In this document: positions 11,411 through 35,824 of the stretch, in pieces
How positions within the stretch are numbered: position 1 is the first letter of the stretch
How the letters are laid out: every line of letters begins with the position of its first letter
IMG/VR virus record: IMGVR_UViG_3300045988_109756
Location: 1 to 36,638 of that record
DNA from: a virus
DNA length: 36,638 nt
Reading direction: 5' to 3' (one strand)
Position numbers and translations under genes: made by a program
Notes under the pieces: model-generated
What the model was told of the DNA's origin: nothing
The model's input: only the letters and a program-made list of their open reading frames with translations
Databases searched by the model: none

Positions 11411-11868
11411 GCTACTGTTCTTCCGGAGATAAGAGGGGCGGAGGCGACACACGCCCCGCCGCTCTTTTTGCTTACACTGAGACGTTTTATGCGGAATTTC
11501 CGTATTACCTGGCTATCGGTATGACCTATGAGCAGTTTTGGGAACAGGACTGCGAACTGGTGAAATATTACCGTGAAGCGGCAAAAATAAGCCGGAATCT
11601 TAGGAACCAAGAAGCTTGGTTACAAGGTAGTTATTTTTACGAGGCATTACTAGACGCCTCTCCTGTATTCAGATCACTTGCTAAGAAGGGCACAAAGCCT
11701 GTTCCGTACAGAGACGCCCCTTATGACATGTGTGACAATCATGACAAGGAAAGCAGAAAACGAAAACAGGATAAGGAGGACGAGAAAGCTAAGGCTTATA
11801 TGCAAGCATTGGCGGTATCAATCAATAGGAGATTCCAGAAAAAGGAAGGTGACGTAAGTGAGCGATAA
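11066..11868 (+). CDS. tail assembly chaperone G-T fusion product (via -1 frameshift at 11386)
   Basis: The -1 frame continues ..GKRKLEDQSVG..LFAYTETFYAEFPYYLAIGMTYEQFWEQD.. up to just before the tape measure gene. This is the classic G/G-T arrangement. Confidence 0.65.
11380..11386 (+). promoter_or_regulatory. -1 programmed ribosomal frameshift heptamer G GGA AAC
   Basis: An X XXY YYZ motif lies in the zero frame of the gpG-like ORF. The -1 frame is open from 11377 to 11868. A GC hairpin GGGGCG..CGCCCC follows at about 11435-11460. Confidence 0.75.
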
Positions 11869-14590
11869 TGTAGAGATGCAGGGCCTTGAATTTAAAATTA
11901 TAAACGACAGCAAAGCGGCAAACGAAAGCCTGGACGATCTCACTAAGACGCTTCGTCGCTTGGGTGATGCAACGAAAAATGGAGAATCCGGGTTAGAAAA
12001 AACGTCAAGGGGGCTTCAAAACGTTGCGCGTAGCAGTTCGAGGCTCCTGAGTGCATTTAGTTTTGCAAAGTTTTTTGCAATTTACCATACCGGAAAGAAA
12101 TCCATCGGTAAACTTATTTCCGCATCCGCCGAGTATACAGAAAACATGAACCTGTTTACTGTGGCTATGGGCGAATACGCAGATAAGGCAAAGGCTTTTG
12201 CGGATAAGGCTTCTAGCGTTCTAGGCCTGGACCCGTCAGATTGGGTACGTAACCAGGGCATTTTCCAGACGTTGCTTACAGGTTTTGGTGATTCAGCGGA
12301 CCGTGCGGCAATTATGAGTCAGAATCTGACACAACTCGGTTACGACCTCAGCTCTTTCTTTAATATCCCTGTTTCAGACGCTATGCAGAAGTTACAGTCT
12401 GGTATATCCGGTGAGTTGGAGCCGTTACGTAGGCTTGGTTATGACCTATCCCAAACCAGACTCGAACAGGAAGCTGTCACTCTCGGAATTCAGAAAAACG
12501 TTTCCGCGATGAATCAGGCAGAAAAAGCAGAGCTGCGCTACCATGCAATTCTAACTCAGGTTACAACCGCACAAGGCGACCTGGCCAGAACGCTAGATGA
12601 CCCGGCAAACCAGATGCGAGTGATGCAAGCTGAAATCGCACAAACCACTCGGGCGTTGGGTGATTTATTCATCCCAATTCTTAATAACGTATTGCCGTAC
12701 CTCATTGCATTTGCTAGAGCACTGCGTGAAATTCTAACGTATCTCGGAGCCTTCGGTAGGGCAGGCGGCACGAAGGAAACAAGCTTTGTCACAAAAAGCA
12801 TCAGCCAGAATACAAAAGCCATCGCTGGATATGTCGATGATGCAGCTAACGGTTTCAAGGCCGCGACGAAGGCCGCAAAAAGTCTCTTAAATTACACAAT
12901 GGCGATTGATGAGCTAAACGTCATCAGTCCACCTGCAAGCGGTGGCTCCGGTGGCGGCGGTTCCGGTGGCGGCGGTGGCTCTGATATCGGCGGGGGCGGC
13001 GGTTTTGATTTTGACCTGCCGACGTATGATTTCTTTGAGGGACTAGTCGACACACAGGTTGATGAGATTATGAAGAAGCTCAGACCGATGATCGATTGGA
13101 TTAAAAAGAATCTGAAAACGATTAAAAAGCTGGTCATTGCAATCGGAGCCGGTCTACTGATGTGGAAGCTAACAAAAACGTTTACCGGAGATTTGCTAAC
13201 AATGTCTCAATTGTTAGGGACCTTCACTTTTACGGCAGGCGTTACGCTCCTGCTAGAAAACTTCGACGCGATAGCAAGCGGAGAATATACGATAACCAGT
13301 TTGCAAGGTATTATTACGACAGCACTAGGCGGCGCGTTGACCTCTGCTGGCTTTGGTCTAGTTGTCGGTGCCTCCGCTGGGACGTTGGCAATTATGATTC
13401 CCGTTGGCGCGGTTTTGTCGCTACTTATCACAGACGTGGTTGTAAATTTCGACGACTACAGGAGTATTGCTGCTGATCTGGGCGGTATAGTGTCCGGTAT
13501 AGTAAACGGTGACGATGCTGGTACAAATTCTAGTTTTAATTCACTTATCGCTACGTATCTAACCTCAGACTCTCTCGGAACGTCCCTATTCCAATCGTTA
13601 ATGTCTAGGATGTATACCGATACAGAACAGGGCCAGATTTTGGCGATGGCAAATACCGGGAATCTGGATTTTAGTAAATTATTGGAGCAGATAAAAGAAG
13701 ACGTTTCGGGTTTCTTCTCTAGTTTCTTCACGGGGGCGGTAGACGATATTAGTTCTTTCTTCGGACCCGTCGTCGAGGCGATAAGCTCACCGTTTGTAAG
13801 TGCTTGGGAAAGTATTAAGGGGGCGTGGGCCACTGTCAGCACCTGGTTCGATACAAATGTAACCCAGCCCGTTGGCGGATTTTTTAAGAAACTTGGAGGA
13901 CAGATTTCAAGGTTTGTCAACGATCCAATCGGTTCTATCCGCAAAATGTGGGCCACTGTCAGCACCTGGTTTGATAAAAATATAACTCAGCCCATTGGCG
14001 GATTTTTTAAGAAACTTGGGGGACAGATTACAAAGTTTTTCAACGACCCAATCGGTTCTATCCGCAAAATGTGGAAAACAGTCAGCACCTGGTTCGATAA
14101 AAATATAATTCAGCCTGTTGGTGGATTCTTCAAGAAACTTGGTGAAGATATCGGTAAGTTTTTCACAAAGCCTATCGAAACGATCAAGCGGACGTGGTTA
14201 AGTATCGTTAGTTGGTTCAACACTAATATTGTCGACCCGATCCGCAATGCGTTTCAATCGATAATACCTTCATCGCACGGTCAAAAGCTAAAAGTTGTTG
14301 ACGCTCGTGAGTATGGTACGACGTCCACGATGCAAGATTACAGTCACGCTTTCGGTTATGCGGTTGCTTCGATAAATAGTAAAAACACGACCCTGAATAA
14401 GTCGATGACAGATGCCGATGAAGACATTGTAAAGGCCATTTACGACACGTCTTCGCAAATCGTCACTGCGATTGAACGCAATCGTCCTTTCGTATCTATC
14501 GGTGATGACACCATCGGGCGTGCTAACAAGAGGTTCGAACAGAAAACCGGAAACAATCATGTGAAGGGAGCGTTTGCTTATGTCCGCTAA
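11858..14590 (+). CDS. tape measure protein
   Basis: 910 aa, with a Gly-run, a TM-rich middle region and tandem 41-aa repeats. It sits after the chaperone pair. Confidence 0.9.
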   Translation: MSDNVEMQGLEFKIINDSKAANESLDDLTKTLRRLGDATKNGESGLEKTSRGLQNVARSSSRLLSAFSFAKFFAIYHTGKKSIGKLISASAEYTENMNLFTVAMGEYADKAKAFADKASSVLGLDPSDWVRNQGIFQTLLTGFGDSADRAAIMSQNLTQLGYDLSSFFNIPVSDAMQKLQSGISGELEPLRRLGYDLSQTRLEQEAVTLGIQKNVSAMNQAEKAELRYHAILTQVTTAQGDLARTLDDPANQMRVMQAEIAQTTRALGDLFIPILNNVLPYLIAFARALREILTYLGAFGRAGGTKETSFVTKSISQNTKAIAGYVDDAANGFKAATKAAKSLLNYTMAIDELNVISPPASGGSGGGGSGGGGGSDIGGGGGFDFDLPTYDFFEGLVDTQVDEIMKKLRPMIDWIKKNLKTIKKLVIAIGAGLLMWKLTKTFTGDLLTMSQLLGTFTFTAGVTLLLENFDAIASGEYTITSLQGIITTALGGALTSAGFGLVVGASAGTLAIMIPVGAVLSLLITDVVVNFDDYRSIAADLGGIVSGIVNGDDAGTNSSFNSLIATYLTSDSLGTSLFQSLMSRMYTDTEQGQILAMANTGNLDFSKLLEQIKEDVSGFFSSFFTGAVDDISSFFGPVVEAISSPFVSAWESIKGAWATVSTWFDTNVTQPVGGFFKKLGGQISRFVNDPIGSIRKMWATVSTWFDKNITQPIGGFFKKLGGQITKFFNDPIGSIRKMWKTVSTWFDKNIIQPVGGFFKKLGEDIGKFFTKPIETIKRTWLSIVSWFNTNIVDPIRNAFQSIIPSSHGQKLKVVDAREYGTTSTMQDYSHAFGYAVASINSKNTTLNKSMTDADEDIVKAIYDTSSQIVTAIERNRPFVSIGDDTIGRANKRFEQKTGNNHVKGAFAYVR
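13825..14250 (+). repeat. 123-bp (41-aa) tandem repeat, about 3.4 copies, inside the tape measure gene
   Basis: Units start at 13825, 13948, 14071 and 14194. The peptide unit is W.TVSTWFD.N(I/V)(T/I)QP(V/I)GGFFKKLG..I..F...PI..I(R/K).. Confidence 0.9.
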
Positions 14591-18052: not shown

Positions 18053-18328
18053 ATGGAATTTCTGAATGATTATCTGGTCGCGGTCGTGGTTGGTATTTGC
18101 TTGTGTATCGGCTACGTTCTGAAACACGCAATCCCGTCGGACAAAATTAACCGCTTTATCCCGCTGCTGATGTTGGTGCTGGGCGCAATCGTCAACGTGT
18201 GGCTGCATGATTTTACCCTGTCGCCGGAAATTTTGCTTGGTGGCATGGCGTCCGGTCTGGCGTCGACGGGGATGCACCAGGCGTATAAACAGATGATTGA
18301 AGGTGGCGCAAATGCAGATCATAGCTAA
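18053..18328 (+). CDS. holin
   Basis: 91 aa with 2-3 TM segments (MEFLNDYLVAVVVGICLCIGYVLK.., IPLLMLVLGAIVNVWL), immediately upstream of the endolysin and overlapping it. Confidence 0.65.
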   Translation: MEFLNDYLVAVVVGICLCIGYVLKHAIPSDKINRFIPLLMLVLGAIVNVWLHDFTLSPEILLGGMASGLASTGMHQAYKQMIEGGANADHS

Positions 18329-19115
18329 ATACCTGACGCAGAATCCGTATTTCCGGGACGGGCGGTGGATCACAGGCCCAGCCTTCCGGGGGTTCTTCCT
18401 TCACTCCGTTGGCGTCGGTCAGCCGGACCCGCTGGTTTTCATCCGGCAGTGGGACAAGCCCAGCTTCACCTACGCTGGAATCAACGGATTCATTGGAGCC
18501 GATGCGGTCTATCTGACGGCCCCATGTTTGGAGACGCCGGGCAAGGTGAAGCGTATGCCCCACGCAGGGAAGCCTGCCGGGAACAATGGGTATATCGGTT
18601 TTGAGATGTGCGAACCGGCACAGATTCATTATACGGTCGGCGCAAGCTTTACCGTGCGGGACAAGGCTGCGGCCCAGGCGTATTGCCGCAAGACGTACCA
18701 GAACGCTGTGCAGCTCTTTGCACGGCTGTGCAGCTTCCACGGCAAGAACCCGCTGCAGAACGGTGTGATTCTGAGCCACAACGAAGGTGGAAAACGTGGT
18801 ATTGCAAGCGGACACGTCGACCCGGAGCATCTGTGGCGCGGCCTGGGTCTGCCGTATACGATGGCAGGATTCCGGCAAGATGTGGCAAGTGCAATGAAAC
18901 CAAAGGAGGAAATCGACATGACGAAAGCAGAAGTGGTGGCGCTGATCGACGAGCGCATCCAAGTGGCCCTAGAGGGAAAGAACACGACGGCAAGCGATTG
19001 GGCAAAGGAGGAGCTGGCCCAGGCGGTCGCGGCGGGGATCACCGACGGCACACGGCCGGGCGGCTACGCCAAACGCGAAGAAGTCGCAGCGATGGTGCTG
19101 CGGAGCCGCAAATAA
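18312..19115 (+). CDS. endolysin, N-acetylmuramoyl-L-alanine amidase (Amidase_2/PGRP-like)
   Basis: FFLHSVGV, NGYIGFEMCEP and SHNEGGKRGIASGHVDPEHLW motifs. It follows the holin. Confidence 0.75.
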   Translation: MQIIAKYLTQNPYFRDGRWITGPAFRGFFLHSVGVGQPDPLVFIRQWDKPSFTYAGINGFIGADAVYLTAPCLETPGKVKRMPHAGKPAGNNGYIGFEMCEPAQIHYTVGASFTVRDKAAAQAYCRKTYQNAVQLFARLCSFHGKNPLQNGVILSHNEGGKRGIASGHVDPEHLWRGLGLPYTMAGFRQDVASAMKPKEEIDMTKAEVVALIDERIQVALEGKNTTASDWAKEELAQAVAAGITDGTRPGGYAKREEVAAMVLRSRK

Positions 19116-19121: not shown

Positions 19122-19232
19122 TTAGGTGAGTTAGGTGAGTAATCGGGTTAAAATCCCTATAACTTCCTCTTAGTACGCGCGTATTAGAAAGAGTTTATAG
19201 GAAAAACACCCGATTACTCACCTTTATCACCT
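19122..19232. repeat. 111-bp extended imperfect palindrome, copy 1 (copy 2 at 35139-35249)
   Basis: The outer 26 nt and 24 nt are identical between copies. The arms GGTGAGTAATCGGG / CCCGATTACTCACC and CCTATAAC / GTTTATAGG surround the centre TACGCGCGTA. GGTGAG boxes with 9-bp spacing lie on each arm. Confidence 0.9.
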
Positions 19233-19238: not shown

Positions 19239-19279
19239 AAAAAAAGACACTCTCTACCAATTAAGGTAAAGAGTGTCTT
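19239..19279 (-). terminator. rho-independent terminator of the integrase gene
   Basis: On the - strand, the stem AAGACACTCT/AGAGTGTCTT (overlapping the last int codons) is followed by a T7 run, seen as the A7 run at 19239-19245 on the + strand. Confidence 0.75.
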
Positions 19280-20922
19280 TTGGTTTGAACAAGAATCGAC
19301 CCGTATGCTATGTATGGTTCGACTCGAAATTCAATGGTACACGAGCATTGGCGATTCTCGAACCCCTTTGTTTTATCGGTAGGGTTCTTTTCAATCGTAA
19401 ACGTCCTAGTCGCCTTCGACGTGATGTTATATGCTGTGGTGATCTTATACCCGTCCGGTTCATCCCATACCGTAACTGAGTTAATCAGCAGGTCGACAAG
19501 TCGTCTACGGAACGTCTCATCCTCAATATCTCCCTGTTTAAACTGACTCAACCAAAATATAATCATATCACGGTCGATTTTGTAAATTCGCCCTTCTTCT
19601 AATTCAATCTCCTCGGCCAGCTCTTTTTTCTGCTGCTCAAGCTTGACTAGTCGGTTCATCAAAGAGTCAGATGCGATTCCCTTTTCTATAGCAGTCGTGA
19701 TATTTTCAATAGACTTCTCAACCTCTGTCATATGCGCTGTTAGCTGAGGAATGCGCGTTTTCTCAAACATATCCAGCTCACTCTGCCGGATTGCCATATC
19801 AGCAATCTCATCTATCAACTGATCGGTCAGGAGATTCAAAGCGTCTTGAACCACGATATCTTCAATATATTCTTTTCGTAACGGTCGTTTGTCGCAGCCG
19901 TTTCCATTTTTACGGTTGCTGCAGGAGTAGTAATGATACACAGTCCCGCGCCTGCCGGTTCCACATTCACCATTCATGTAAGCCCCACAGTGGCCGCAGA
20001 ACAGCTTTCCAGAAAGAATGTAATCTACCTTTCCAGTACCACGTGCGGGCGCTACAGCGGCTCTATCCATCCTCAGCTGCACTCTATCAAACAATTCTTT
20101 GTCGATGATTGCAGGAATGCCGTTTTCAATGTGAATATCCTTGTACTTGTAGGTGCCAATGTACCGAATATTTCTAAATATTGACCGGAAGCTATTGCAG
20201 TTGAACTCACCGTTTTTAGCGGTTCTATAACCTGCCGAATTAAATTTCCTGCAGATGTCGGCAATTCTCATGCCGTTGGCATAAAGCGTGAATGCTTCCT
20301 GGACGATATGTGCTGTATCAGGATTGACTACGAGTTTGTGATTCTCCACCTTGTAGCCGAGCGGAATATGTCCACCGATGCTTTGACATTTCATAGCAGA
20401 TTCGCGCATACCTCGCGACACCTTTTGGGAAAGCTCAGCGGAGAAAAATTCAGCCATACCTTCCAGCACAGATTCCAGGATGATACTTTCCGGGCTGTCC
20501 GTGAGGTGTTCTGTGGCGGAGAGGACTTTTACACCGTTCTTTCGCAGACGCATCTTCATAATCGCGCTGTCGTTACGGTTACGAGCGAACCGGTCAAGCT
20601 TCCAAACAACAACGTATTCCCAACGTCGCTTTGCGCTGTCGGAGATCAATTTTAGAAGGTGGACACGCTTTTCTATGCTTCTGGCGGTGGTTGCCCGATC
20701 AATATAAACCGCGACAATCCTGTAATTATTCGCTTTGCAAAAAGCACGGCAATCACGAAGCTGCCCTTCAATGGATTGGTCACTCTGGCCTGTGGAGCTG
20801 TATCGTAGATACAAAGCTACATTATGTTCACCGTTATATAGGGTGAAGGGATCCTCTTCAAATTGGGCCAATTCTTCTTCTGTTAACCACGAAAGATCAA
20901 TTGGAAATTTTGTAATTGACAT
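19261..20922 (-). CDS. int: large serine recombinase (integrase)
   Basis: Resolvase catalytic domain (LYLRYSSTGQS, LDRFARNRND), a recombinase domain, a zinc ribbon (CGHCGAYM..YYSCSNRKNGNGC) and a coiled coil. ATG 20922 is preceded by an aaggaaa RBS. Confidence 0.9.
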   Translation of the reverse strand: MSITKFPIDLSWLTEEELAQFEEDPFTLYNGEHNVALYLRYSSTGQSDQSIEGQLRDCRAFCKANNYRIVAVYIDRATTARSIEKRVHLLKLISDSAKRRWEYVVVWKLDRFARNRNDSAIMKMRLRKNGVKVLSATEHLTDSPESIILESVLEGMAEFFSAELSQKVSRGMRESAMKCQSIGGHIPLGYKVENHKLVVNPDTAHIVQEAFTLYANGMRIADICRKFNSAGYRTAKNGEFNCNSFRSIFRNIRYIGTYKYKDIHIENGIPAIIDKELFDRVQLRMDRAAVAPARGTGKVDYILSGKLFCGHCGAYMNGECGTGRRGTVYHYYSCSNRKNGNGCDKRPLRKEYIEDIVVQDALNLLTDQLIDEIADMAIRQSELDMFEKTRIPQLTAHMTEVEKSIENITTAIEKGIASDSLMNRLVKLEQQKKELAEEIELEEGRIYKIDRDMIIFWLSQFKQGDIEDETFRRRLVDLLINSVTVWDEPDGYKITTAYNITSKATRTFTIEKNPTDKTKGFENRQCSCTIEFRVEPYIAYGSILVQTKRHSLP

Positions 20923-21119
20923 ATATCTATTTCCTTTACACAATTTAACATGGCAAATTGAATAAAAAGTGCTATAATACTCTTGACACTAATACGTAGG
21001 AAGTATTTCTTTAGGACAGGATAGGAGTAGAGTATGTCATACCACTAATGAAAGCACAGTTTCCGAAGAGGAAGCTGTTGCAATGTTTGAAGCACTCAGC
21101 GCGGATCAACAGAAACATA

Positions 21120-22278: not shown

Positions 22279-22458
22279 ATGTTACCAAATCCGTGTGACG
22301 GCTGTAGTAGGAATTTGCCGAGCGCTGGGTGTGTATGCCCTGCCTGGAAATACTATTTCCGTGTAAATTGGGCGGAAGTCTGTAGGCCGTTTCGGCAGTT
22401 GCTAAAGCGGAAGAACGCAGGATATAACATGCAAAACAAAAAGGAGAGGGGTGTATGA
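22279..22458 (+). CDS. Cys-rich small protein
   Basis: RBS gaaggaggt precedes the start. The sequence begins MLPNPCDGCSRNLPSAGCVCPAWKYYF.. Confidence 0.5.
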   Translation: MLPNPCDGCSRNLPSAGCVCPAWKYYFRVNWAEVCRPFRQLLKRKNAGYNMQNKKERGV

Positions 22459-22862
22459 TGAGCAGCAACCGTAAGACTGGTAACAGTTTCGAGAAGGACT
22501 TGTGCCAAAGCTTGGCAGCGTATGGGTTCTGGGTACACAATCTTGCACAGAATAGCCAGGGCCAGCCATTTGATGTGCTTGCCGCGAGAAATGGTGTTAG
22601 CTATCCCATTGATTGTAAAGTCTGTTCTCGAAACATATTTAAGACAGAGCGCATCGAAGAAAACCAATTTTCCGCTATGTCGCTTTGGCACGAGACAGGA
22701 AATGGCCATGGTTGGTTTGCGCTTAGATTGACAAATGGATCCGTTTACATGATTCCCTTCCTAGATATGGCTGCGCGTATGCTCGTTAAAGCCACATTGA
22801 ATGCGAACGAGATTAGAACCCTCGGATGGACGCTTCGAGAGTGGGTGTCCCAATGCAAGTAA
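22455..22862 (+). CDS. Holliday junction resolvase, Hjc-like PD-(D/E)xK nuclease
   Basis: GNSFEKDLCQSLAAYGFWVH..QPFDVLAARNGVSYPIDCK matches the E..D..D/ExK layout of archaeal-type resolvases. Confidence 0.6.
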   Translation: MMSSNRKTGNSFEKDLCQSLAAYGFWVHNLAQNSQGQPFDVLAARNGVSYPIDCKVCSRNIFKTERIEENQFSAMSLWHETGNGHGWFALRLTNGSVYMIPFLDMAARMLVKATLNANEIRTLGWTLREWVSQCK

Positions 22863-24241
22863 CTGTTGGCAATCAGCTCCGAATTGAAAACCCGTCTGAG
22901 CAGTTGCTTAAATGGTGCAAGAAGCAGCTTATCCTTCCTAATCCTGAGTACGCCAAGAAAGTCCGTATGCACTTTTGGGTCGGCAACACCCCTGAGAAGT
23001 TGCACCTGTTCCAATGGGACGGTGACACACTGGTTCTTCCATACGGGTGCTTGAACGATGTGCTGGCGATGGACGATTGCCACATGAAGGCCAATCTTCC
23101 CACACCGACTGAGGTGGACTTTGGTTGCACCATTCCGCTCTATGACTACCAAGTGAAAGCAAAGGAAGCCCTGATAACTGCCTACTACGGTATTCTTCAA
23201 GCCCCTGCGGGGTGCGGTAAGACACAGATCGGAATTGCTGTTGCGGCGGATACCGGTCGAAGGACACTCTGGCTGACCCATACACGGGATTTGCTCGTAC
23301 AGAGCAAAAGCCGAGCGGAGCAGTACATGAGTCCTTCTCTGACTGGCACGATCACCGAAGGTAGGGTTCAAATCGGTAAGGCAATCACCTTCGCAACGGT
23401 ACAGACCATGTGCAACCTCGATCTGAGTCAATACCGTGATGTTTGGGATTGTATCATCGTGGACGAGTGCCACCGTGTAGCCGGAACCCCAACCGCTATG
23501 ACGCAGTTCTCAAAGGTGCTGAACGCTCTGGCAGCTCGGCATAAGTACGGCCTGTCCGCTACGGTTCATCGAGCAGACGGTATGATTGCCGCCACCTACG
23601 CCCTGCTGGGCGGGATTGCCTATCAGGTGCCGGACGAAGCGGTGAAAGGCAAGATCATGACCGTCAGCGTTTTGCCACGTGCTACCCACATCGGTTTAGA
23701 CCGTGAATTTCTTGATACGGACGGCACAATCATTTATGCAAAACTGGTGAATTATCTTGCCGAAGATTTTCGCCGTAACTGTCAGATTGTCGGCGATCTT
23801 ATGCTGAACGATCAGCATTTCAACCTAATTCTATCAGACAGGCTTGGTCATTTGGAGTATTTGATGAACCATCTTCCGCCCGAGCTGAGAAAACAGGCGG
23901 TCATGATTGATGGGAGGATGACCACGAAGAAAGCCAAGGCTCTCCGAGAACAGGCCATTGAGGAAATGCGACAGGGGCGCAAGCGGTATCTATTCGCCAC
24001 TTACTCTCTGGCGAAAGAGGGGCTGGATATTCCTCGACTCGACCGTCTGTACCTGACTACACCGCAGAAAGACTATGCTGTGATAACTCAAAGCATTGGT
24101 CGTATCGCTCGTACCTTCGAGGGAAAGGGAGAACCCATCGCTTACGATTATGTGGACGATGGTATCCAGTACCTCGTGAGAAGTTACAAGAAGCGGTGTA
24201 CCACCTACCGGAAAGCGGGGTGCAAGTTCCTTGAACCTTGA
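22853..24241 (+). CDS. superfamily-2 DEAD/DEAH-box helicase
   Basis: Walker A APAGCGKT, DECH box IVDECH, and C-terminal helicase motifs (LAKEGLDIPRLD, QSIGRIAR). Confidence 0.85.
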   Translation: MQVTVGNQLRIENPSEQLLKWCKKQLILPNPEYAKKVRMHFWVGNTPEKLHLFQWDGDTLVLPYGCLNDVLAMDDCHMKANLPTPTEVDFGCTIPLYDYQVKAKEALITAYYGILQAPAGCGKTQIGIAVAADTGRRTLWLTHTRDLLVQSKSRAEQYMSPSLTGTITEGRVQIGKAITFATVQTMCNLDLSQYRDVWDCIIVDECHRVAGTPTAMTQFSKVLNALAARHKYGLSATVHRADGMIAATYALLGGIAYQVPDEAVKGKIMTVSVLPRATHIGLDREFLDTDGTIIYAKLVNYLAEDFRRNCQIVGDLMLNDQHFNLILSDRLGHLEYLMNHLPPELRKQAVMIDGRMTTKKAKALREQAIEEMRQGRKRYLFATYSLAKEGLDIPRLDRLYLTTPQKDYAVITQSIGRIARTFEGKGEPIAYDYVDDGIQYLVRSYKKRCTTYRKAGCKFLEP

Positions 24242-25070
24242 ACCTTTCATTTTTGACTGCGAGGTGTTTGCCTACGATTGGCTTTTTGTCTTCAAGAACA
24301 AGGTCACGGGGGAATACACCGTCATCTGGAATGACAATGAAGCGGTCGAACAATTCATGACCCAAGAACCCCTGTTGGCAGGGTTCAACAATAAGCACTA
24401 TGACCAATTTATTCTGAAAGCGGTTCTCTCAGGTTTCACGCCGGAGGAAATCAAGGCGGTCAACGATTTCATCATCGTTGGTGGTCACGAGGGCTGGGAG
24501 TACGCCCCTCTCCGTGACTGCGGGATTTTCTTCGATCAATATGACCTGATGGACGATTGCCAGATGGGGTTGTCCTTGAAAGCAATCGAAGCCCACCTCG
24601 GAATGGACATTCGTGAAACCACCGTTCCGTTCAACATTGACCGCCCTCTGACTGAGGACGAGAAGCGAGAGGTCGAGTTCTACTGCCGCCACGATGTTGA
24701 CGCAACCGACAGGCTGGACGATCTTCGTCAAGGCTACCTGTCCAGCAAGCTCACGCTGGGTCGTGAAAAGGGGCTGTATCCCGCAAAAGCCCTCTACATG
24801 ACCAACGCCAAGCTGACCGCTGCTTACCTTGACGCAGAGCAGAAACCGCACTATGACGAGCGGGAATACCAGTATCCGCCGAAGCTGCTTCGTCAGTACA
24901 TTCCGCAGGAAGTGTTCGACTTCTTCGAACGGTTGAAGGATAAGAGTATTCCTGACGAAGTGGTGTTCAAGGAAAAACTCGATCTGATGGTAGGCGGCTG
25001 TCCTTGCACCATCGCCTACGGCGGTATTCACGGAGCTATCCCATGTTACCGAGAGGAAGGTGAAATATGA
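24231..25070 (+). CDS. family-B-like DNA polymerase, N-terminal piece (3'-5' exonuclease domain)
   Basis: Exo I FDCEVF, Exo II NNKHYDQF, Exo III YCRHDVDAT. The ORF ends (..YGGIHGAIPCYREEGEI*) before any palm motif. It starts with TTG and overlaps the helicase stop. Confidence 0.75.
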   Translation: MNLEPFIFDCEVFAYDWLFVFKNKVTGEYTVIWNDNEAVEQFMTQEPLLAGFNNKHYDQFILKAVLSGFTPEEIKAVNDFIIVGGHEGWEYAPLRDCGIFFDQYDLMDDCQMGLSLKAIEAHLGMDIRETTVPFNIDRPLTEDEKREVEFYCRHDVDATDRLDDLRQGYLSSKLTLGREKGLYPAKALYMTNAKLTAAYLDAEQKPHYDEREYQYPPKLLRQYIPQEVFDFFERLKDKSIPDEVVFKEKLDLMVGGCPCTIAYGGIHGAIPCYREEGEI

Positions 25071-25483
25071 GAGACAGGTTGGACATTATTCATTTCAACA
25101 TGATTCAGCGTTGCACTAACCCGAATTCAACCTACTTCCCCCGTTACGGCGGACGAGGTATTACCGTTTGCCACGAATGGCGAACACGGAACAACTTCAA
25201 GGAATGGGCTTTGTCACACGGCTACCGTAATGACTTGACCATTGACCGCATTGACAATGACAAGGGGTATTTCCCTGATAATTGCCGATGGGTCACGCCG
25301 AGTCAGAATTGTTGTAACCGTTCTACGACACATTTTGTTACTGCGTTCGGGAAACGGCAATCTCTGATGGAGTGGAGTAGAGAACTCAACATCTCATACA
25401 ACACTCTGAAAAAGAGAGTGACTGACCATCATGAGGACGGTGAGTATCTTCTTCGTCCGTCCAGAAGAAAGGCGGTGATTTGA
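25067..25483 (+). CDS. HNH-like homing endonuclease, free-standing, inserted in the polymerase gene
   Basis: YGGRGITVCHEW..LTIDRIDNDKGYFPDNCRWVTPSQN pattern. ATGA overlap with the polymerase N piece. Visibly lower GC than the flanking sequence. Confidence 0.7.
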   Translation: MRDRLDIIHFNMIQRCTNPNSTYFPRYGGRGITVCHEWRTRNNFKEWALSHGYRNDLTIDRIDNDKGYFPDNCRWVTPSQNCCNRSTTHFVTAFGKRQSLMEWSRELNISYNTLKKRVTDHHEDGEYLLRPSRRKAVI

Positions 25484-25531
25484 GTGGGAAAGCGAATGAT
25501 TAGAAACTATGATGTTGCTTCCTACTACTGA
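25484..25531 (+). other. 15-codon mini-frame carrying polymerase motif A (VGKRMIRNYDVASYY*)
   Basis: It starts with GTG immediately after the HNH stop and ends at TGA 25529-25531. The rest of the polymerase continues in the -1 frame (..LNPHLMTLMGYTSRN..). Confidence 0.6.
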
Positions 25532-25539
25532 ACCCGCAC

Positions 25540-26502
25540 TTGATGACACTAATGGGATATACTTCTCGAAATATCCCTTCTCCCGATGTCTACGCCGCCA
25601 CCATTGAGCGGCGAGTAAAGGCAAAAAGAGCGGGTGACAAAGCTACGGCGAACGCTTTAAAGCTGGTGCTGAACACCACCTACGGCGCTATGTTGAACCG
25701 CTATAACCCGCTGTATGACCCTCTCATGGGAAGATCAGTATGTATTTCAGGCCAGCTATTTTTGTTGGAGTTGGCAAATCATTTGGTAACAGACTGTAAG
25801 ACCTTAAAGGTTATTCAGTTAAATACCGATGGTATCATGGTCAGCTTTGATGAAGACGAATACCAGAAAGTCTTAGAAATCACGGGCGAATGGCAAGAGC
25901 GCACGGGGTTCGAGCTTGAAGAAGATACCGTGAAATCCATCTGCCAGAAAGATGTGAACAATTATGTCGAGGTTCCCTTCGAGGGCGACCCCAAAATCAA
26001 GGGCGGCGTTCTCGTTCGTGGAATTGCCCCGGCAGGAGCGTTCAACATCAACAACAACGCCTGCGTGGTTGCCAAGGCCGTCAAGGATTATCTGGCCTAC
26101 GGCGTCCCGGTCGAAGATACCATCATGAGCTGCGACCGCCTGCTGGACTTCCAGTTGGTCGCCAAGGCCGGGAGTAAGTATGGTGACGCTCTCCATGAGG
26201 TAGACGGTCAGATGGAGGTCGTGCAGAAGGTCAACCGGGTATATGCCACGGAAGACCATCGCTACGGAACCCTCTACAAAATCCACCTCGGCACTGGCAA
26301 TCCCGTCAAGATTGCCGGACTCCCCGCAAAATGTGTCGTGGACAACGACAATCACTTGACGATTGATGTGGTTGATCGTGACTGGTATATCCGGTTGGCA
26401 CGGCGCTATGTCCGAGATTTTCTCGGTAAGAAGCCGCCCAAGCGGAACACCCGCAGAGTCAATTCCATCAAGAAAAAATTATTAGAAATGTTGGAGGTAT
26501 AA
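25540..26502 (+). CDS. family-B-like DNA polymerase, C-terminal piece (palm/thumb)
   Basis: Motif B KLVLNTTYG and motif C-like QLNTDGIMV. The track start is TTG 25540 or ATG 25543. The frame is open from about 25522. Confidence 0.7.
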   Translation: MMTLMGYTSRNIPSPDVYAATIERRVKAKRAGDKATANALKLVLNTTYGAMLNRYNPLYDPLMGRSVCISGQLFLLELANHLVTDCKTLKVIQLNTDGIMVSFDEDEYQKVLEITGEWQERTGFELEEDTVKSICQKDVNNYVEVPFEGDPKIKGGVLVRGIAPAGAFNINNNACVVAKAVKDYLAYGVPVEDTIMSCDRLLDFQLVAKAGSKYGDALHEVDGQMEVVQKVNRVYATEDHRYGTLYKIHLGTGNPVKIAGLPAKCVVDNDNHLTIDVVDRDWYIRLARRYVRDFLGKKPPKRNTRRVNSIKKKLLEMLEV

Positions 26503-26504
26503 AT

Positions 26505-28827: not shown

Positions 28828-28830
28828 CCT

Positions 28831-29346
28831 ATGAAGTTTTCAAAGTTCGTGAAGTCCCTCGCCCCTGATGGCGGCGCTATCTATGAGTACATGGGTGAAC
28901 GCTGGCTTGCTTCCCCGTCCGTACTTATGCTCATTCCCGATGGTATCCGCAGCGTGACCGGGTACAGCAACGAGAAAATGCCTGACGGCATTGGTCGCCT
29001 GATTTCTCAGGTCGGTTGCACCGAGTACGCCACGCTGGTCAAGGCAATCATGCCTGAACCGGACGGCGCAATCAAGGATTGTGTCCGTATTTTCGCCACG
29101 CAGGACAGCACCATGACCCTTCCCATCACCAATGATGACTGGTCGCTGATCGAGAAGTCTGACTTCTGCGAAATTCTGTACGCTTACGATCTGGAAAGCG
29201 ATAAGAGCGTACCGAAAGCCCTGCTGGTCAAGCAGTACGCCAAGTACCCCGATGACGAAGACCAGTTGGTTGGTATCATCTTCCCCTGCGAGTACACAGA
29301 ACAGCTCAATTTCTACACCATGAAGGAGGACAAAAACAATGGCTAA
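28831..29346 (+). CDS. hypothetical protein (paralog of 178-726)
   Basis: 171-aa ORF sharing motifs with the 178-726 ORF. Confidence 0.6.
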   Translation: MKFSKFVKSLAPDGGAIYEYMGERWLASPSVLMLIPDGIRSVTGYSNEKMPDGIGRLISQVGCTEYATLVKAIMPEPDGAIKDCVRIFATQDSTMTLPITNDDWSLIEKSDFCEILYAYDLESDKSVPKALLVKQYAKYPDDEDQLVGIIFPCEYTEQLNFYTMKEDKNNG

Positions 29347-31386: not shown

Positions 31387-32169
31387 ATGTATGAAACAAT
31401 CCCTCAAGAATTAAAAGAAAAACGCTGCTGGGTTAATGTGTGGAACACCTCTAAGGTTCCTATGCAAAGCACCGTAAGAAAGGCAGCGTCGGCTTCTAAC
31501 CCGGATACGTGGTCTACCTTCGAGGACGCTGTTTCTGCGGTAGAACGGGGCGTATATGACGGCATTGGCTATGTGTTTTGCGATGACGGTATTGTCGGTA
31601 TCGACATTGACAATGGCTTTACCGATGGGTTTCTGAACCCGCTGGCGGCTGACATTATCGGTCGTTGTCACTCCTACACGGAAAAGTCCAGAAGCGGGAG
31701 AGGGGTTCACATTCTCGTTCGTGGAGAGCTGCCCTTCAAAGGCAAGAACAACCGTGCCGCTGTGGAAATTTACAAGAGCAATCGGTACTTCATCATGACC
31801 GGCGAGGTTTTGATCTTCTCAGAAATCATTGAAAACCAGTCAGCGATTGACTATGTGATCGAGAAGTATTTTCCCGATACACCGAAGGAAAGTAGTTCAG
31901 GTACGGTTGCCCCTCAGCGTATCTATTCTCCCATCTATCGCCGTCCTGAAAACGGCAAGCTGCATTTGAAGCCTGAATACCCGCCTATCACACCGGGAAG
32001 CCGAAACCTCAGCCTGACTTCTCTGGCGGGTCAGCTCCATAACCAAGGATACACCAAAGCAGAGATTTACAAAGAACTGTTGTACGCCAACTCCCAAGCC
32101 TGCAAGCCCCCTCTCCCGCAGTCAGAAGTTGAGTTGATTGTCAACAGCGTGACCAGATACAGGAGGTAA
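31387..32169 (+). CDS. AEP-type primase/polymerase domain protein
   Basis: GIGYVF..IVGIDIDN and EKSRSGRGVHILVRG motifs, which resemble the N-terminal domain of bifunctional prim-pol proteins. Confidence 0.7.
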   Translation: MYETIPQELKEKRCWVNVWNTSKVPMQSTVRKAASASNPDTWSTFEDAVSAVERGVYDGIGYVFCDDGIVGIDIDNGFTDGFLNPLAADIIGRCHSYTEKSRSGRGVHILVRGELPFKGKNNRAAVEIYKSNRYFIMTGEVLIFSEIIENQSAIDYVIEKYFPDTPKESSSGTVAPQRIYSPIYRRPENGKLHLKPEYPPITPGSRNLSLTSLAGQLHNQGYTKAEIYKELLYANSQACKPPLPQSEVELIVNSVTRYRR

Positions 32170-32177: not shown

Positions 32178-33686
32178 ATGGCTGATGAAATCACAACCGT
32201 CCCCGAAGAACAGGCTCTTTTCCAGCTCTCCAACGGTCGCTACATCATGGACGAAGCTCAGTCCAGAGTGATGTTTCAGATTAAGGAAGCACAGCCTGAG
32301 CATAGCCACCCGATCAGCGGCACGGGGTATTCGTGGGACGAGTCCGGCATGGCAGAGCTGTTCTCCGAGTGCTACAAGAATGATACCCGCTACTGCCCCG
32401 AAGCGAAAAGCTGGTTCACCTACTCCGAGGGTGCATGGAGAAAGGATACCGGCTCTCTGCTGGTAGCTGAGAAGATCAAAGAGTTCTGCCGCCTGATGGC
32501 TCTCTACTGCGGCGAGATTGCCAATGAAGAACGCCGTACCGAGTACATGAAGTTCATCGTGAAGATGGGCGATCGGCGTTTCCGTGACCGGCTGATGAAG
32601 GACGCTGCCAGTGTGCTTCCTATCGCTTCGGTGGAGTTTGACGCAAATCCCTACCTTATCAACTGCAAGAACGGCACTTTCGACCTCGAAAAGATGGAGT
32701 TCTGGGAGCATGACTGGCGTGACTTCCTGACCATGCAGACCAACTTCAACTACACCTTGCAGGACGCACGGTGCCGCCGCTGGGAGAAGTTCGTTGCAGA
32801 GGTTACTTGTAATGACGAAGACAAGGCTGACTATCTGCAAAAGGCGCTGGGGTACTCTATGTTGGGTATGGCAAACGAGGAATGTATGTTCATTCTCCAC
32901 GGCAAAACCACCCGCAACGGCAAGTCCACTATGCTCTCGGCAATTCACCACCTTCTCGGTGACTATGCTTCCGTGTCCCCCGTGTCGATCATCTGCAAGG
33001 CGGAGCGGTCGAAGAATGCCGAAGCCGCTAACCCCATGCTGGCTTCCCTGAAAGGCAAGCGGTTTGTCACCATGGCTGAGAGTAACCAGTATGGCAAACT
33101 GGACGAGGAAACGATCAAGCAGCTCACAGGCGGCGAAGAAATCAAGGCTCGGAACCTCTATGAGACTGCCACGACCTTCCTGCCGCAGTTCACCCTTTGG
33201 CTCTCTTGTAACGACCTTCCGACCGTCAGCGACAAGTCCCTGTTTGCTTCCGACCGTGTGCGAGTGATCGAGTTCAACCGTCACTTTACCGAAGCGGAGC
33301 AGGACAAGAACCTGAAAAACGAGTTCCAGACACAAGAAGCCATGCAGGGCATTTTCGCTTGGCTGGTCACTGGGTACTTCAAGTACAAGCGGTTTGGCCT
33401 GAAAATGTCCCCCGCCATGCGGAAGGTGGTCAACCAGTACGAGCGTGACAACGATCTTTGCTTGCAGTTCCTCGAAGAACGCTGTGAGCAGGCTGAGGGA
33501 GTCAACACCCGTTCGAAGTCTCTGTTTGACGCTTACAAGATTTGGTGCAAGTCCAACGGGTACTTTGCCTGTTCTGCCAAGCGGTTCAACGCTGACATGG
33601 AAACCCACCCTGAGTGGCACGGCGGCAAGGTTGTGTATCAGGGCTACCCCGTCTACAAAAACCTCAGACTGAAAGGAGCGTCTTAA
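32178..33686 (+). CDS. D5/P4-family primase-associated SF3 helicase
   Basis: Walker A HGKTTRNGKST, a Walker B-like FVTMAESN, and a D5_N-like N-terminal half. Confidence 0.8.
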   Translation: MADEITTVPEEQALFQLSNGRYIMDEAQSRVMFQIKEAQPEHSHPISGTGYSWDESGMAELFSECYKNDTRYCPEAKSWFTYSEGAWRKDTGSLLVAEKIKEFCRLMALYCGEIANEERRTEYMKFIVKMGDRRFRDRLMKDAASVLPIASVEFDANPYLINCKNGTFDLEKMEFWEHDWRDFLTMQTNFNYTLQDARCRRWEKFVAEVTCNDEDKADYLQKALGYSMLGMANEECMFILHGKTTRNGKSTMLSAIHHLLGDYASVSPVSIICKAERSKNAEAANPMLASLKGKRFVTMAESNQYGKLDEETIKQLTGGEEIKARNLYETATTFLPQFTLWLSCNDLPTVSDKSLFASDRVRVIEFNRHFTEAEQDKNLKNEFQTQEAMQGIFAWLVTGYFKYKRFGLKMSPAMRKVVNQYERDNDLCLQFLEERCEQAEGVNTRSKSLFDAYKIWCKSNGYFACSAKRFNADMETHPEWHGGKVVYQGYPVYKNLRLKGAS

Positions 33687-35040: not shown

Positions 35041-35138
35041 CTGTCGAAAGTGAGTTAGGTGATAAAGGTGATAAAGGTGAGTGTTTTTGCAAAGACTTTT
35101 TTCAAATTGGCGTGTTTTGAAAAATTGTTTTTCGTATT

Positions 35139-35249
35139 TTAGGTGAGTTAGGTGAGTAATCGGGCATAAATGCCTATAACTCTCTCTTATACGCGCGTAT
35201 ATAGAAATAGTTATAGGGAAATGCACCCGATTACTCACCTTTATCACCT
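35139..35249. repeat. 111-bp extended imperfect palindrome, copy 2, directly upstream of terS
   Basis: Its outer arms are identical to copy 1 (19122-19232) and its interior has diverged. Extra GGTGAT/GGTGAG 9-bp-phased boxes lie at 35058-35081. Confidence 0.9.
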
Positions 35250-35275: not shown

Positions 35276-35824
35276 ATGTCAGATGAAATTGTGAAAAAGC
35301 GCACTCGGCCCGATCGTAAGGAAGCCATGAGCGTCCATACAGAGCCGGGTGACAATAGAAAATATCTGGAACATTCGATGGTCATGCTGGACTGGCCTGA
35401 TGTGAATGTGAGAGAACCTGAACAGGTCAAAGAGCGTATGGGTATGTACTTTGCTCTGTGCGCTCAGGACGATATGAAGCCCTCTGTTGCTGGTATGGCA
35501 TTGGCTTTTGGAGTTGATAGAACGACTCTATGGAAATGGGCAAATGGAGTGGATAGTAAGACTTTGCCCTCGGAAAGCCGCAACCTTGTAAAAAAGGCGT
35601 ACCAACTTTTGAACGCACAGATGGAAAATTATATGCAGAACGGGAAGATCAATCCGGTCGCTGGTATCTTCCTGATGAAGAACAACATGGGCTATGCGGA
35701 CAAGCAGGAGGTCGTGTTGACACCCAACCAGCAGCTCGGAGATCAGGTTTCCGCCGAGGACTTGGAGAAGAAGTATCTCGAAGATGTGGTGGGTGCGTCC
35801 AGTGACAATGACTCGGAGGACTGA
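35276..35824 (+). CDS. terS: terminase small subunit
   Basis: HTH segment PSVAGMALAFGVDRTTLWKWANG and the C-terminal NPVAGIFLMKNNMGYADKQEV pattern typical of Firmicutes phage TerS. RBS aaaggag precedes the start. Confidence 0.7.
   Translation: MSDEIVKKRTRPDRKEAMSVHTEPGDNRKYLEHSMVMLDWPDVNVREPEQVKERMGMYFALCAQDDMKPSVAGMALAFGVDRTTLWKWANGVDSKTLPSESRNLVKKAYQLLNAQMENYMQNGKINPVAGIFLMKNNMGYADKQEVVLTPNQQLGDQVSAEDLEKKYLEDVVGASSDNDSED

What the first reader, a model, noticed from the sequence alone, without database searches (positions are those of the whole stretch)
19122..19232. A 111-bp extended palindrome occurs twice and brackets the whole packaging-structural-lysis block
Copy 1 (19122-19232) lies between the endolysin stop and the integrase terminator. 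Copy 2 (35139-35249) ends 26 nt before the terS start. The outer 26 nt and 24 nt are identical in the two copies, while the interior differs by substitutions and a 1-nt indel. Each copy is a nested dyad: GGTGAG-tta-GGTGAG-taatcggg ... CCTATAAC ... TACGCGCGTA ... GTT(T)ATAGG ... cccgatta-CTCACC-ttt-ATCACC. The two copies therefore sit exactly at the two junctions between the late module and the lysogeny/early module. Several options are open. Copy 1 may contain attP, since large serine integrase attP sites are 40-50 bp imperfect palindromes next to int. Against that, the centre CGCG is itself palindromic and a second copy is unexpected. Other options are module-boundary recombination sequences, a MITE/ERIC-like palindromic element, binding sites for a late regulator or TerS, or bidirectional structured terminators.
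Basis: seen in the sequence. Interest (0 to 1): 0.66.

Follow-up and report, generated by a model that had tools for sequence, protein, structure and literature searches.

The report
Duplicated iteron-type phage replication origin
The twice-occurring 111-bp palindrome is real, is not the phage attachment site or a jumping element, and is most likely the replication origin (plus a second origin-like copy) recognised by the phage's own P4/SaPI-type helicase-initiator.

Summary
Two ~111-bp imperfect palindromes (19122-19232 and 35139-35249) have identical outer arms and fold far better than shuffles.

The attP idea is refuted. In integrated relatives the element stays intact, and the crossover lies ~100 nt further on, in the 3' end of int, at tRNA/tmRNA 3' ends.

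It is not a host repeat or MITE. There are only 8 hits in 185,579 species genomes, against hundreds in related Oscillospiraceae phages.

Each arm carries two 5-bp repeats, (G/A)GTGA, 9 bp apart. The two arms point in opposite directions around an AT-rich core. Copy 2 has four more direct repeats and a 75%-AT spacer upstream. This is the defining layout of SaPI-type origins and resembles the P4 ori/crr repeats.

The window encodes the matching primase (31387-32169) and a P4-family helicase-initiator (32178-33686; best PDB hit is SaPI5 PriRep5) upstream of copy 2. In distant relatives the element abuts the rep stop codon. There the repeats change sequence together at all sites, and the Rep C-terminal helix/wing also changes. 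TerS HTH types are shuffled relative to repeat types.

Best reading is a pri-rep-ori origin, duplicated like P4 ori+crr (confidence ~0.55). The function is untested, and the role of the second copy is unknown.

The parts
35139..35249 (.). Element copy 2 (class A), proposed core of the replication origin. It has two inverted pairs of 5-bp iterons around an AT-rich palindromic centre.
   Evidence: The same position, ~29 nt upstream of terS, is used in all relatives sampled.
35142..35155 (+). Left-arm iterons GGTGA (35142-35146 and 35151-35155), 9-bp spacing.
35235..35248 (-). Right-arm iterons TCACC (35235-35239 and 35244-35248), in the opposite direction to the left pair.
35049..35080 (+). Four upstream direct iterons with a 9-bp period: AGTGA 35049, then GGTGA 35058, 35067, 35076. 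Relatives have 2-4.
   Evidence: They change sequence together with the arms in other lineages.
35085..35141 (.). 57-bp T-tract-rich spacer (75% AT), a candidate DNA-unwinding region. The distance from the first GGTGA of the upstream iteron cluster to the element is conserved at 83-85 bp.
19122..19232 (.). Element copy 1 (second site), with the same iteron arms (19125-19138 and 19218-19231) but no upstream direct repeats. Proposed second origin or crr-like cis site.
32178..33686 (+). Rep: P4-family SF3 helicase-initiator (D5_N + DUF5906 + Pox_D5 C-terminal domain), the proposed iteron binder.
   Evidence: Pfam. TIGR01613 scores 227 bits against a cut-off of 108.7. BLASTP to P4 alpha gives E = 5e-8. 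Best PDB hit is SaPI5 PriRep5, 7OLA, E = 1.3e-12. The C-terminal helix and wing vary with iteron type.
31387..32169 (+). Pri: primase-associated protein (PriCT_1 domain) immediately upstream of rep.
   Evidence: Present upstream of the element in 22 of 22 relatives with enough flank.
19242..19281 (-). Intrinsic terminator after int. In integrated relatives it follows the restored tRNA/tmRNA 3' end. It is separate from the element.
19325..19350 (.). Inferred attP crossover region inside the int 3' end (approximate). It lies outside the element.
   Evidence: Phage forms and integrated forms diverge after CCAATGGTGGA. Integrated int homologues lose homology after residue ~536, which corresponds to window ~19336.
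19261..20943 (-). Large serine integrase.
35276..35824 (+). TerS (GP3_package), the gene immediately downstream of copy 2.

Best explanation
The element is an iteron-type origin of replication of a pri-rep-ori replicon, the kind used by staphylococcal pathogenicity islands and, in a two-site form, by satellite phage P4. The proposed mechanism has the following steps. The C-terminal winged-helix domain of the phage helicase-initiator (32178-33686) binds the 5-bp repeats (G/A)GTGA. These sit as two pairs pointing in opposite directions on either side of an AT-rich, self-complementary ~80-bp centre. At copy 2 there are four further direct repeats 84 bp upstream, across a 75%-AT spacer. The bound protomers assemble into hexamers and melt the AT-rich DNA, with the palindrome able to fold into stem-loops. 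The adjacent primase then primes synthesis. The second copy (19122-19232) carries the same four arm repeats. It would act either as a second origin or as a cis-acting helper site like P4 crr. What is shown: the anatomy, its conservation, the co-change of all repeats within a genome, linkage to pri-rep, and homology of Rep to P4 alpha and SaPI Rep. What is inferred: binding by Rep, melting, and any role of the second copy.
For: 1) Architecture. There are two pentanucleotide repeats on each side in opposite directions around an AT-rich centre (61-67% AT against 52% for the genome), and 8 repeats in all at copy 2. [quoted passage not shown] They are recognised by the WHD in the Rep C-terminal domain, with pri upstream of rep and ori downstream.
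2) Cognate genes. A PriCT_1 protein is followed by a P4-family helicase. The best solved homologue is SaPI5 PriRep5. The protein is homologous to P4 alpha over D5_N-DUF5906-Pox_D5.
3) P4 precedent. The P4 record shows two cis replication regions, ori and crr. Both carry GGTGAACA repeats in direct and inverted orientation at 9-11 bp spacing. crr lies between the alpha gene and attP/int. That gives the same GGTGA core, the same two-site logic, and a second site next to attP, as here.
4) Linkage. All 22 relatives with at least 5 kb of upstream flank have pri and rep 1.5-3.4 kb upstream of the element. In L295 the element starts ~10 nt after the rep stop. In L294 the repeats start ~95 nt after it.
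5) Co-variation. Repeats change as a set (upstream direct repeats, both arms, and the second copy) from GGTGA to AGTGA, GGGTGCC or AGTAGG in different lineages. The core and geometry stay the same. The Rep C-terminal helix and wing are the most variable part of its otherwise well-conserved C-terminal region, and they differ between repeat types.
6) Structure. 9 of 19 arm pairs show compensatory changes. A ~75-nt side-hairpin insertion in one arm and free orientation at the second site are both tolerated. This matches the ~100-nt stem-loop origin of pRN1 and phage BIP-1, which works when displaced (PMC4234260).
7) GC skew. Skew rises from ~0 to +0.15 at 33.5-35 kb with no change of transcription direction, and falls at 19.2 kb.
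Against: There is no experimental or read-coverage evidence for initiation here. In this window and its close relatives the element is 1.5-3.4 kb from rep, and in L296 5 kb. It always abuts terS, so linkage to terS is at least as tight as linkage to rep. At deep divergence the TerS HTH also differs, so co-variation does not single out Rep. The AGTGA and L204 lineages share repeat cores but have different Rep wings. SaPI origins are described as single; a second copy needs the P4 analogy, and what crr does beyond being required in cis rests on the record annotation alone. GC skew is confounded by module history and expression. Rep's primase partner matches only PriCT_1, with no catalytic primase domain detected by Pfam or NCBIfam.
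Confidence: 0.55

Rival explanations
1. Packaging recognition site. TerS binds the repeated 5-mers (as in lambda cosB R sites or the P1 pac hexamers), copy 2 with its upstream repeats is pac, and the second copy is a partial or secondary TerS site.
For: The element lies 26-29 nt upstream of terS in every relative, including L296, where rep is 5 kb away. The repeat clusters flank bendable AT-rich DNA. The TerS HTH differs in lineages with very different repeats.
Against: TerS HTH types are shuffled relative to repeat types. RTTLWKW occurs with both GGTGA and AGTGA. RKTIWAW occurs with both GGTGA and the L204 type. L087 has a replaced TerS N-terminal domain, and an HNH gene inserted between element and terS, yet keeps the same element. 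Second copies are never next to terS and occur in either orientation.
Confidence: 0.13
2. Late-gene control element. Either a phage regulator (for example the RHH protein at 34441-34632) binds the repeats, or the transcribed palindrome acts as an RNA hairpin (processing site, stabiliser or attenuator) in front of terS and holin and behind the endolysin.
For: The element sits in intercistronic positions followed within 20-30 nt by an RBS and start codon: terS, and holin-like genes in class B, L209 and L233. It forms a very stable hairpin on either strand. The upstream repeats are 18/18 complementary to the right arm, so alternative pairing is possible (I17). An RHH gene is conserved upstream.
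Against: No sigma-70-like promoter or T-run terminator is found at either copy. Copy 1 faces a terminator 10 nt away. Orientation relative to transcription is not conserved at second sites, and a one-sided 75-nt insertion occurs on either arm relative to the gene downstream. G.U versus A.C mismatches favour no single strand. The RHH beta-strand is identical in the GGTGA and AGTGA lineages. No Rfam family matches; only generic miRNA-precursor hairpin hits appear, far below gathering scores. No ArpU/RinA-type regulator was found.
Confidence: 0.12
3. Recombination hot spot only. The repeat is kept because it provides homology for module exchange by the phage Erf/YqaJ/Hjc system, with no dedicated function.
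For: Mosaic breakpoints coincide with the element. Variable genes lie upstream of copy 2. Four or more unrelated lysis cassettes lie before or after the second copy. L067 and L275 are hybrids between element types. The phage encodes ERF, a YqaJ exonuclease and an Hjc-like resolvase.
Against: This does not explain the conserved iteron geometry, the co-change of the non-palindromic upstream repeats, the 83-85 bp spacing kept across diverged spacers, or retention of the architecture when the repeat sequence is completely replaced. Breakpoints at conserved cis sites are expected whatever the function.
Confidence: 0.08
4. Copy 1 contains attP of the large serine integrase.
For: It is adjacent to int and is an imperfect palindrome.
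Against: L121 and L122 (tmRNA) and L127 (tRNA-Ala) carry the intact element, the terminator and a ~55-nt block next to the RNA gene's 3' end. Phage forms diverge from them only after CCAATGGTGGA, ~100-110 nt beyond the element. About 50 integrated int homologues lose homology within residues ~505-554, mostly ~536 = window ~19336, and continue into host DNA. In class B relatives the element is 1.6-1.8 kb from int.
Confidence: 0.01
5. MITE/ERIC/Correia-like mobile palindromic element.
For: Its size is ~107-111 bp with 23-26-bp terminal inverted repeats. Some copies are flanked by TA.
Against: The half-site pattern gives 8 hits in 185,579 species genomes. Six are paired arms of complete elements, next to phage genes or att-type tRNA/tmRNA junctions where the flanks were examined; one has a diverged partner arm; one looks like chance. 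There are at most two copies per genome at fixed kinds of position. No empty sites, no consistent target duplication and no autonomous element with the same ends were seen in the loci examined.
Confidence: 0.03

Closest known systems
SaPI replication origins (pri-rep-ori replicons of Staphylococcus aureus pathogenicity islands; Rep1, Rep2, PriRep5)
   Same: The gene order is primase gene, then SF3 helicase-initiator gene, then origin. Short 5-6-bp iterons are recognised by the C-terminal winged-helix domain. There are at least two iterons on each side of an AT-rich centre pointing in opposite directions, and 6-12 iterons in all. Specificity differs between elements (PMC9371898). The window's Rep is the closest sequence match to solved PriRep5.
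   Different: Here the whole site is an extended ~107-bp palindrome with compensatory arm changes. In this lineage it lies 1.5-3.4 kb from rep rather than immediately after it. It is present twice per genome. The host is a temperate siphovirus-like phage of gut Oscillospiraceae, not a satellite.
Satellite phage P4 ori and crr with alpha protein
   Same: There are two separate cis replication regions sharing one iteron (GGTGAACA) in direct and inverted orientation at 9-11-bp spacing. One of them lies next to attP/int. The initiator has D5_N-DUF5906-Pox_D5 domains homologous to the window's Rep. The iteron core GGTGA is shared.
   Different: P4 alpha carries a Toprim primase in the same polypeptide. 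P4 crr is a tandem 120-bp duplication, not a palindrome. P4 integrase is a tyrosine recombinase. Rep/alpha identity is only 22%.
pRN1 / Bordetella phage BIP-1 stem-loop origins
   Same: A ~100-nt stem-loop downstream of a primase/SF3-helicase/winged-helix replication gene. The integrity of the stem is required, the sequence is poorly conserved but the structure is kept, and it functions when moved (PMC4234260).
   Different: pRN1 is reported to lack iterons. Its Rep is one fused polypeptide with a prim-pol domain. Direct proof of initiation at the stem-loop was not obtained there either.
Terminase recognition sites (lambda cosB R1-R3, P1 pac hexamer clusters, SPP1 pacL/pacR)
   Same: Clusters of short repeats flank bendable DNA next to terS (own knowledge of these systems).
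   Different: TerS DNA-binding types do not track the repeat types here. There is a second copy far from terS. A cognate iteron-binding helicase is present.
Correia/RUP/ERIC-type miniature palindromic repeats
   Same: Length ~100-130 bp, terminal inverted repeats, intergenic location (own knowledge).
   Different: Those occur in tens to hundreds of copies in host chromosomes. This one is confined to one phage lineage with at most two copies.

Membership tests
SaPI/P4-type iteron origin (pri-rep-ori replicon) | Initiator is a self-loading SF3 helicase of the P4 primase C-terminal family with a C-terminal winged-helix/Pox_D5 domain. | tested here: met
   TIGR01613 scores 227 bits (cut-off 108.7). 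D5_N + DUF5906 + Pox_D5. PriRep5 (7OLA) E = 1.3e-12. P4 alpha E = 5e-8.
SaPI/P4-type iteron origin (pri-rep-ori replicon) | Primase gene directly upstream of rep. | tested here: inconclusive
   31387-32169 ends 9 nt before rep and has a PriCT_1 domain. No catalytic primase domain was detected by Pfam or NCBIfam.
SaPI/P4-type iteron origin (pri-rep-ori replicon) | Penta- or hexanucleotide iterons, at least two on each side of an AT-rich centre, pointing in opposite directions; 6-12 per origin. | tested here: met
   GGTGA x2 on the left and TCACC x2 on the right in both copies, plus 4 direct repeats upstream of copy 2. The centre is 61-67% AT against 52% for the genome. The definition is quoted from PMC9371898.
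SaPI/P4-type iteron origin (pri-rep-ori replicon) | Origin located downstream of rep. | tested here: met
   Downstream in 22 of 22 relatives, at 1.5-3.4 kb. It lies ~10 nt after the rep stop in L295, with repeats starting ~95 nt after it in L294. It is 5 kb away in L296, so 'immediately' is not always met.
SaPI/P4-type iteron origin (pri-rep-ori replicon) | Rep binds the iterons specifically and replication starts there. | not testable with these tools
   Indirect evidence only: repeats co-change with the Rep C-terminal helix/wing, and a GC-skew shift.
Large serine integrase attP | The crossover lies within the site, so the site is split into attL and attR in the integrated form. | tested here: not met
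   The element is intact beside tmRNA/tRNA genes in L121, L122 and L127. The divergence point is ~100-110 nt away. Int homology ends at ~residue 536 in integrated forms.
MITE / ERIC / Correia-like repeat | Many dispersed copies in host genomes, with insertion polymorphism and target duplication. | tested here: not met
   8 stretches in 185,579 species genomes. No consistent target duplication or empty site was seen.
Terminase small subunit recognition site (pac/cos) | Site specificity tracks the DNA-binding domain of the adjacent TerS. | tested here: not met
   The same element occurs with RTTLWKW, with RKTIWAW, and with a replaced TerS N-domain. The same HTH occurs with GGTGA and AGTGA repeats. 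At deep divergence both change, so the test is not absolute.
Intrinsic (bidirectional) terminator | G+C-rich hairpin directly followed by a T-run. | tested here: not met
   The scan finds no terminator at either copy. A separate terminator lies at 19242-19281.
Known structured RNA families (Rfam 15) | Match at or above a family's gathering score. | tested here: not met
   0 matches at gathering score. Only generic miRNA-precursor hairpin hits appear, far below threshold.
Small serine recombinase res/hix-type site (invertase 2445-3086) | The recombinase is co-inherited with its sites. | tested here: not met
   The invertase homologue is present in only a minority of loci that carry the element and span terS to terL.

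The most novel reading that the evidence does not exclude
The phage runs a two-site replication system. An extended cruciform-capable iteron palindrome at the early/late boundary is the origin. A second copy, free in position and orientation and often placed beside attP so that it ends up at the extreme prophage end next to a tRNA/tmRNA gene, has a distinct role. That role could be a P4-crr-like enhancer that loops to the origin. It could be a second initiation site that allows in-situ replication across the attachment junction. It could be a Rep-titrating decoy giving lysogens origin-based exclusion of related phages.
Probability: 0.15. Interest if true: 0.6.

Novelty: new variant of a known kind. 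Interest (0 to 1): 0.45.

Why it matters
Replication origins are hardly ever annotated in uncultured gut phages. This finding gives a concrete, testable origin signature for a large family of Oscillospiraceae (Dysosmobacter/Oscillibacter) temperate phages. The signature is paired inverted 5-bp iterons around an AT-rich palindrome, downstream of a P4-family helicase. It shows that iteron sequence and the initiator C-terminus diversify together while the geometry is kept. It extends the SaPI/P4 pri-rep-ori design to full-size temperate phages. It also shows that this conserved cis site doubles as the breakpoint where lysis, packaging and early modules are swapped. Finally, it removes a tempting but wrong attP assignment and locates the real attachment region in the int 3' end, targeting tRNA/tmRNA 3' ends.

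Tried and rejected
- **attP in copy 1:** rejected by comparing phage and integrated forms.
- **Host dispersed repeat or MITE:** rejected by a scan of 185,579 species genomes and by flank analysis.
- **Known RNA family:** Rfam at gathering and permissive thresholds gave nothing meaningful.
- **tRNA in the window:** none found.
- **Site for the small serine invertase (2445-3086):** rejected because that gene is absent from most relatives carrying the element.
- **Strand-specific RNA element:** I first thought the internal loops were always A-rich on the sense strand. That rule fails at second sites (class D, L042, L096, L211, L233) and in the AGTGA lineage.
- **Conserved 3x3 internal loop:** not universal. 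The arms are perfectly paired in L211, L272 and L275.
- **Shine-Dalgarno/anti-SD mimicry of AGGTGAT/ATCACCT:** dropped, because other lineages use GGGTGCC or AGTAGG repeats.
- **RHH protein as binder:** no co-variation of its beta-strand.
- **ArpU/RinA-type late regulator:** none detected among the small ORFs upstream.
- **Literature searches:** searches for the P4 iteron string and for Sfi21-type origins were unproductive. The P4 repeats were instead verified directly from the annotated record.
- **INPHARED:** it holds only two unannotated fragments with the element.

Full report
**Observation.**
- The repeat finder pairs 19122-19172 with 35139-35189 and 19185-19232 with 35202-35249. It also reports each copy as an inverted repeat.
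- The outer 26 nt on each side are identical between copies. The interior is 85-88% identical, with two offsetting 1-nt indels.
- Either strand of either copy folds at -54 to -57 kcal/mol, z about -9.4 to -11.5.
- GGTGA-N4-GGTGA occurs 7 times against 0.04 expected, six of them in or beside the copies.
- The window is a circular assembly (77-nt terminal overlap).

**Context in the window.**
- An Amidase_2 endolysin (18297-19115) is followed by copy 1, then a terminator (19242-19281), then a large serine integrase on the minus strand (19261-20943).
- Copy 2 ends 26 nt before terS (35276).
- Upstream of copy 2 there are four more direct repeats with a 9-bp period (35049-35080) and a 57-bp, 75%-AT spacer.

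**Distribution.** The half-site pattern hits only 8 stretches in 185,579 species genomes. Of those 8:
- six are paired arms of complete elements, in Dysosmobacter, Oscillibacter, Brotocaccenecus and unnamed Clostridiales genomes, plus one contig binned as Bacteroidaceae;
- one has a diverged partner arm;
- one looks like chance.

It is therefore a feature of one phage lineage, not a host repeat or MITE.

**Not attP.**
- In L121 and L122 the intact element, the terminator and a ~55-nt block lie next to the 3' end of a tmRNA gene. In L127 they lie next to tRNA-Ala.
- Aligned with phage forms (window, L005, L042, L044, L109), all sequences agree through the element and up to CCAATGGTGGA. They then split into the int 3' end or the RNA gene.
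- In an unbiased sample of int homologues, about 50 integrated copies lose homology within residues ~505-554, mostly at ~536 (window ~19336), and continue into host terminators. Phage forms extend to residue 559-560.
- The crossover is therefore ~100-110 nt beyond the element, inside the int 3' end, and the targets are tRNA/tmRNA 3' ends.

**Positions in relatives.**
- One copy is always ~26-29 nt upstream of terS. It is preceded by 2-4 direct repeats that begin right after the stop codon of a variable upstream gene.
- The second copy varies in position. It can lie directly before the terminator/attP/int block after at least four unrelated endolysins. It can lie 1.6-1.8 kb from int, just upstream of a holin-lysin cassette. 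In L295 it lies in the terS-terL island.
- The orientation of the second copy relative to flanking genes is not fixed. Outer arms and inner core occur in different relative orientations. Hybrids between types exist (L067, L275).
- Bracketing of the late block is thus particular to this genome. The element is a frequent mosaic breakpoint.

**Evolution of the element.** Relatives sampled through TerS, Int and Rep homology, not through the element itself, show the same architecture with other sequences.
- The 5-mer GGTGA becomes AGTGA in one lineage. The change occurs in both arms, in the non-palindromic upstream repeats, and in second-site copies.
- In L294 the repeats are GGGTGCC: three direct upstream, one on each arm, and two more inverted downstream. 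In L295 they are AGTAGG in both of its copies, around a core almost identical to the window's.
- The distance from the first GGTGA of the upstream repeat cluster to the element stays 83-85 bp across diverged spacers.
- Arm stems keep complementarity with different sequence: 9 of 19 pairs have compensatory changes.
- The centre TACGCGCGTA is not conserved.
- A ~75-nt side hairpin can be inserted in one arm.
- Mismatch types favour neither strand.

Together these point to a DNA-level, functionally symmetric site. It combines short sequence-specific repeats with a foldable AT-rich centre.

**What it matches.**
- Gene 32178-33686 is a P4-family helicase-initiator: D5_N, DUF5906 and Pox_D5 domains, and TIGR01613 well above its cut-off. 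It is preceded by a PriCT_1 protein.
- Its best solved homologue is SaPI5 PriRep5. It aligns with P4 alpha over the same three domains.
- PMC9371898 describes SaPI replicons as pri, rep and an origin downstream of rep. That origin is made of 6-12 penta- or hexanucleotide iterons read by the Rep C-terminal winged helix. It has an AT-rich centre and at least two iterons on each side pointing in opposite directions. This is the anatomy of the element.
- The P4 record shows two cis regions, ori and crr. They share GGTGAACA repeats in both orientations at 9-11-bp spacing, and crr lies next to attP/int.
- PMC4234260 shows that related primase/SF3-helicase/winged-helix proteins (pRN1, phage BIP-1) use a ~100-nt stem-loop downstream of rep. 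It tolerates relocation and needs stem integrity.
- All 22 close relatives with enough flank carry pri-rep 1.5-3.4 kb upstream of the element. In L295 the element follows the rep stop almost directly, and in L294 the repeats start ~95 nt after it.
- GC skew steps up at 33.5-35 kb without a change in transcription direction, and drops at 19.2 kb.

**Which protein reads the repeats.**
- Rep's C-terminal helix and wing are constant in more than 30 GGTGA-type loci. They differ in the AGTGA, L204, L294, L295 and L296 lineages, and they are the most variable part of its otherwise well-conserved C-terminal region.
- The TerS HTH is identical in the GGTGA and AGTGA lineages and occurs in two versions within the GGTGA type. 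TerS has a replaced N-domain in L087 with an unchanged element.
- The RHH protein upstream has the same beta-strand in the GGTGA and AGTGA lineages.
- This favours Rep. At deep divergence TerS also changes, and the element never leaves terS, so the TerS and late-control rivals are not excluded.

**Verdict.**
- The best-supported explanation is an iteron-type origin of a pri-rep-ori replicon, present in two copies as in P4 (confidence about 0.55).
- Binding, melting and the job of the second copy are inferred, not shown.
- It is a new variant of a known kind. It differs in being an extended palindrome, in being duplicated with a free second position, and in doubling as the main mosaic junction in a widespread family of gut Oscillospiraceae phages.

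Noticed in passing
window 35860-36638 and 1-3729 (across the circular junction): A ~3.4-kb accessory island separates terS from terL. It holds an HTH protein (1779-2123), a small serine recombinase/invertase (2445-3086), a Sie-like exclusion protein (3079-3729) and a minus-strand ORF (1337-1636). Its content varies widely among relatives; some carry FtsK-like/nSTAND genes or a larger serine recombinase (Resolvase + Recombinase domains, L294) instead.
   Followed up: partly
window 1714-1764 and 36092-36142; also 1544-1565/1638-1659: A 51-nt direct repeat (82% identical) contains TTGACA followed by the palindrome ACTGAAT(T/A)ATTTCAGT. A nearby 22-nt inverted repeat is 95% complementary. Together they look like duplicated promoter/operator sites of the accessory island.
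   Followed up: no
window 19283-19350 and int 3' end: attP overlaps the last ~25 codons of the large serine integrase, so integration replaces the Int C-terminus. The phage supplies a ~55-nt block and a terminator downstream of the restored tRNA/tmRNA gene. Different relatives target tmRNA, tRNA-Ala and other sites with the same conserved block.
   Followed up: partly
window 13825-14193: Three tandem 123-bp repeats (100/92/69% identity) lie inside the 910-aa ORF at 11858-14590, probably the tape measure or a tail protein. A glycine-rich GGC/GGT repeat run lies at 12939-13002.
   Followed up: no
L087 ~7400-8060; L065/L190 and L203 between the element and terS: In some relatives an extra gene is inserted between the element and terS, and the insert re-uses the same RBS and first codons (ATGGCAGATGA...). 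In L087 the product starts MADELWLPIPGYEGLYAVSNK and looks like an HNH/NUMOD-type homing endonuclease. In L065/L190 and L203 it is a small coiled-coil-like ORF. L087 also has a TerS with a replaced N-terminal domain.
   Followed up: partly
L067 1794-1900; L275 6899-7005: These elements are chimeric. L067 has the left half of the holin-site type joined near the centre to the inverted right half of the terS-site type. L275 combines halves of two lineages. This is evidence that copies recombine with each other in either alignment.
   Followed up: partly
L128-L192 (about 20 loci), left arm of the terS-site copy: A common polymorphism changes CGGG to CAGG in the left arm only. Three loci add CCCGATT to CCCAATT in the right arm. 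All are G-to-A on the plus strand, giving A.C mismatches on the plus strand and G.T wobbles on the minus strand.
   Followed up: partly
window 22455-29821: The early region encodes a full recombination set: an Hjc-like resolvase, an SF2 helicase, an ERF annealing protein and a YqaJ exonuclease. It also encodes ThyX, MazG and DUF1599 nucleotide-metabolism genes.
   Followed up: no
window 22500-33500 versus 35000-19200: The early arc has near-zero GC skew although it is transcribed on the plus strand. The late arc has a skew of +0.1 to +0.2.
   Followed up: partly
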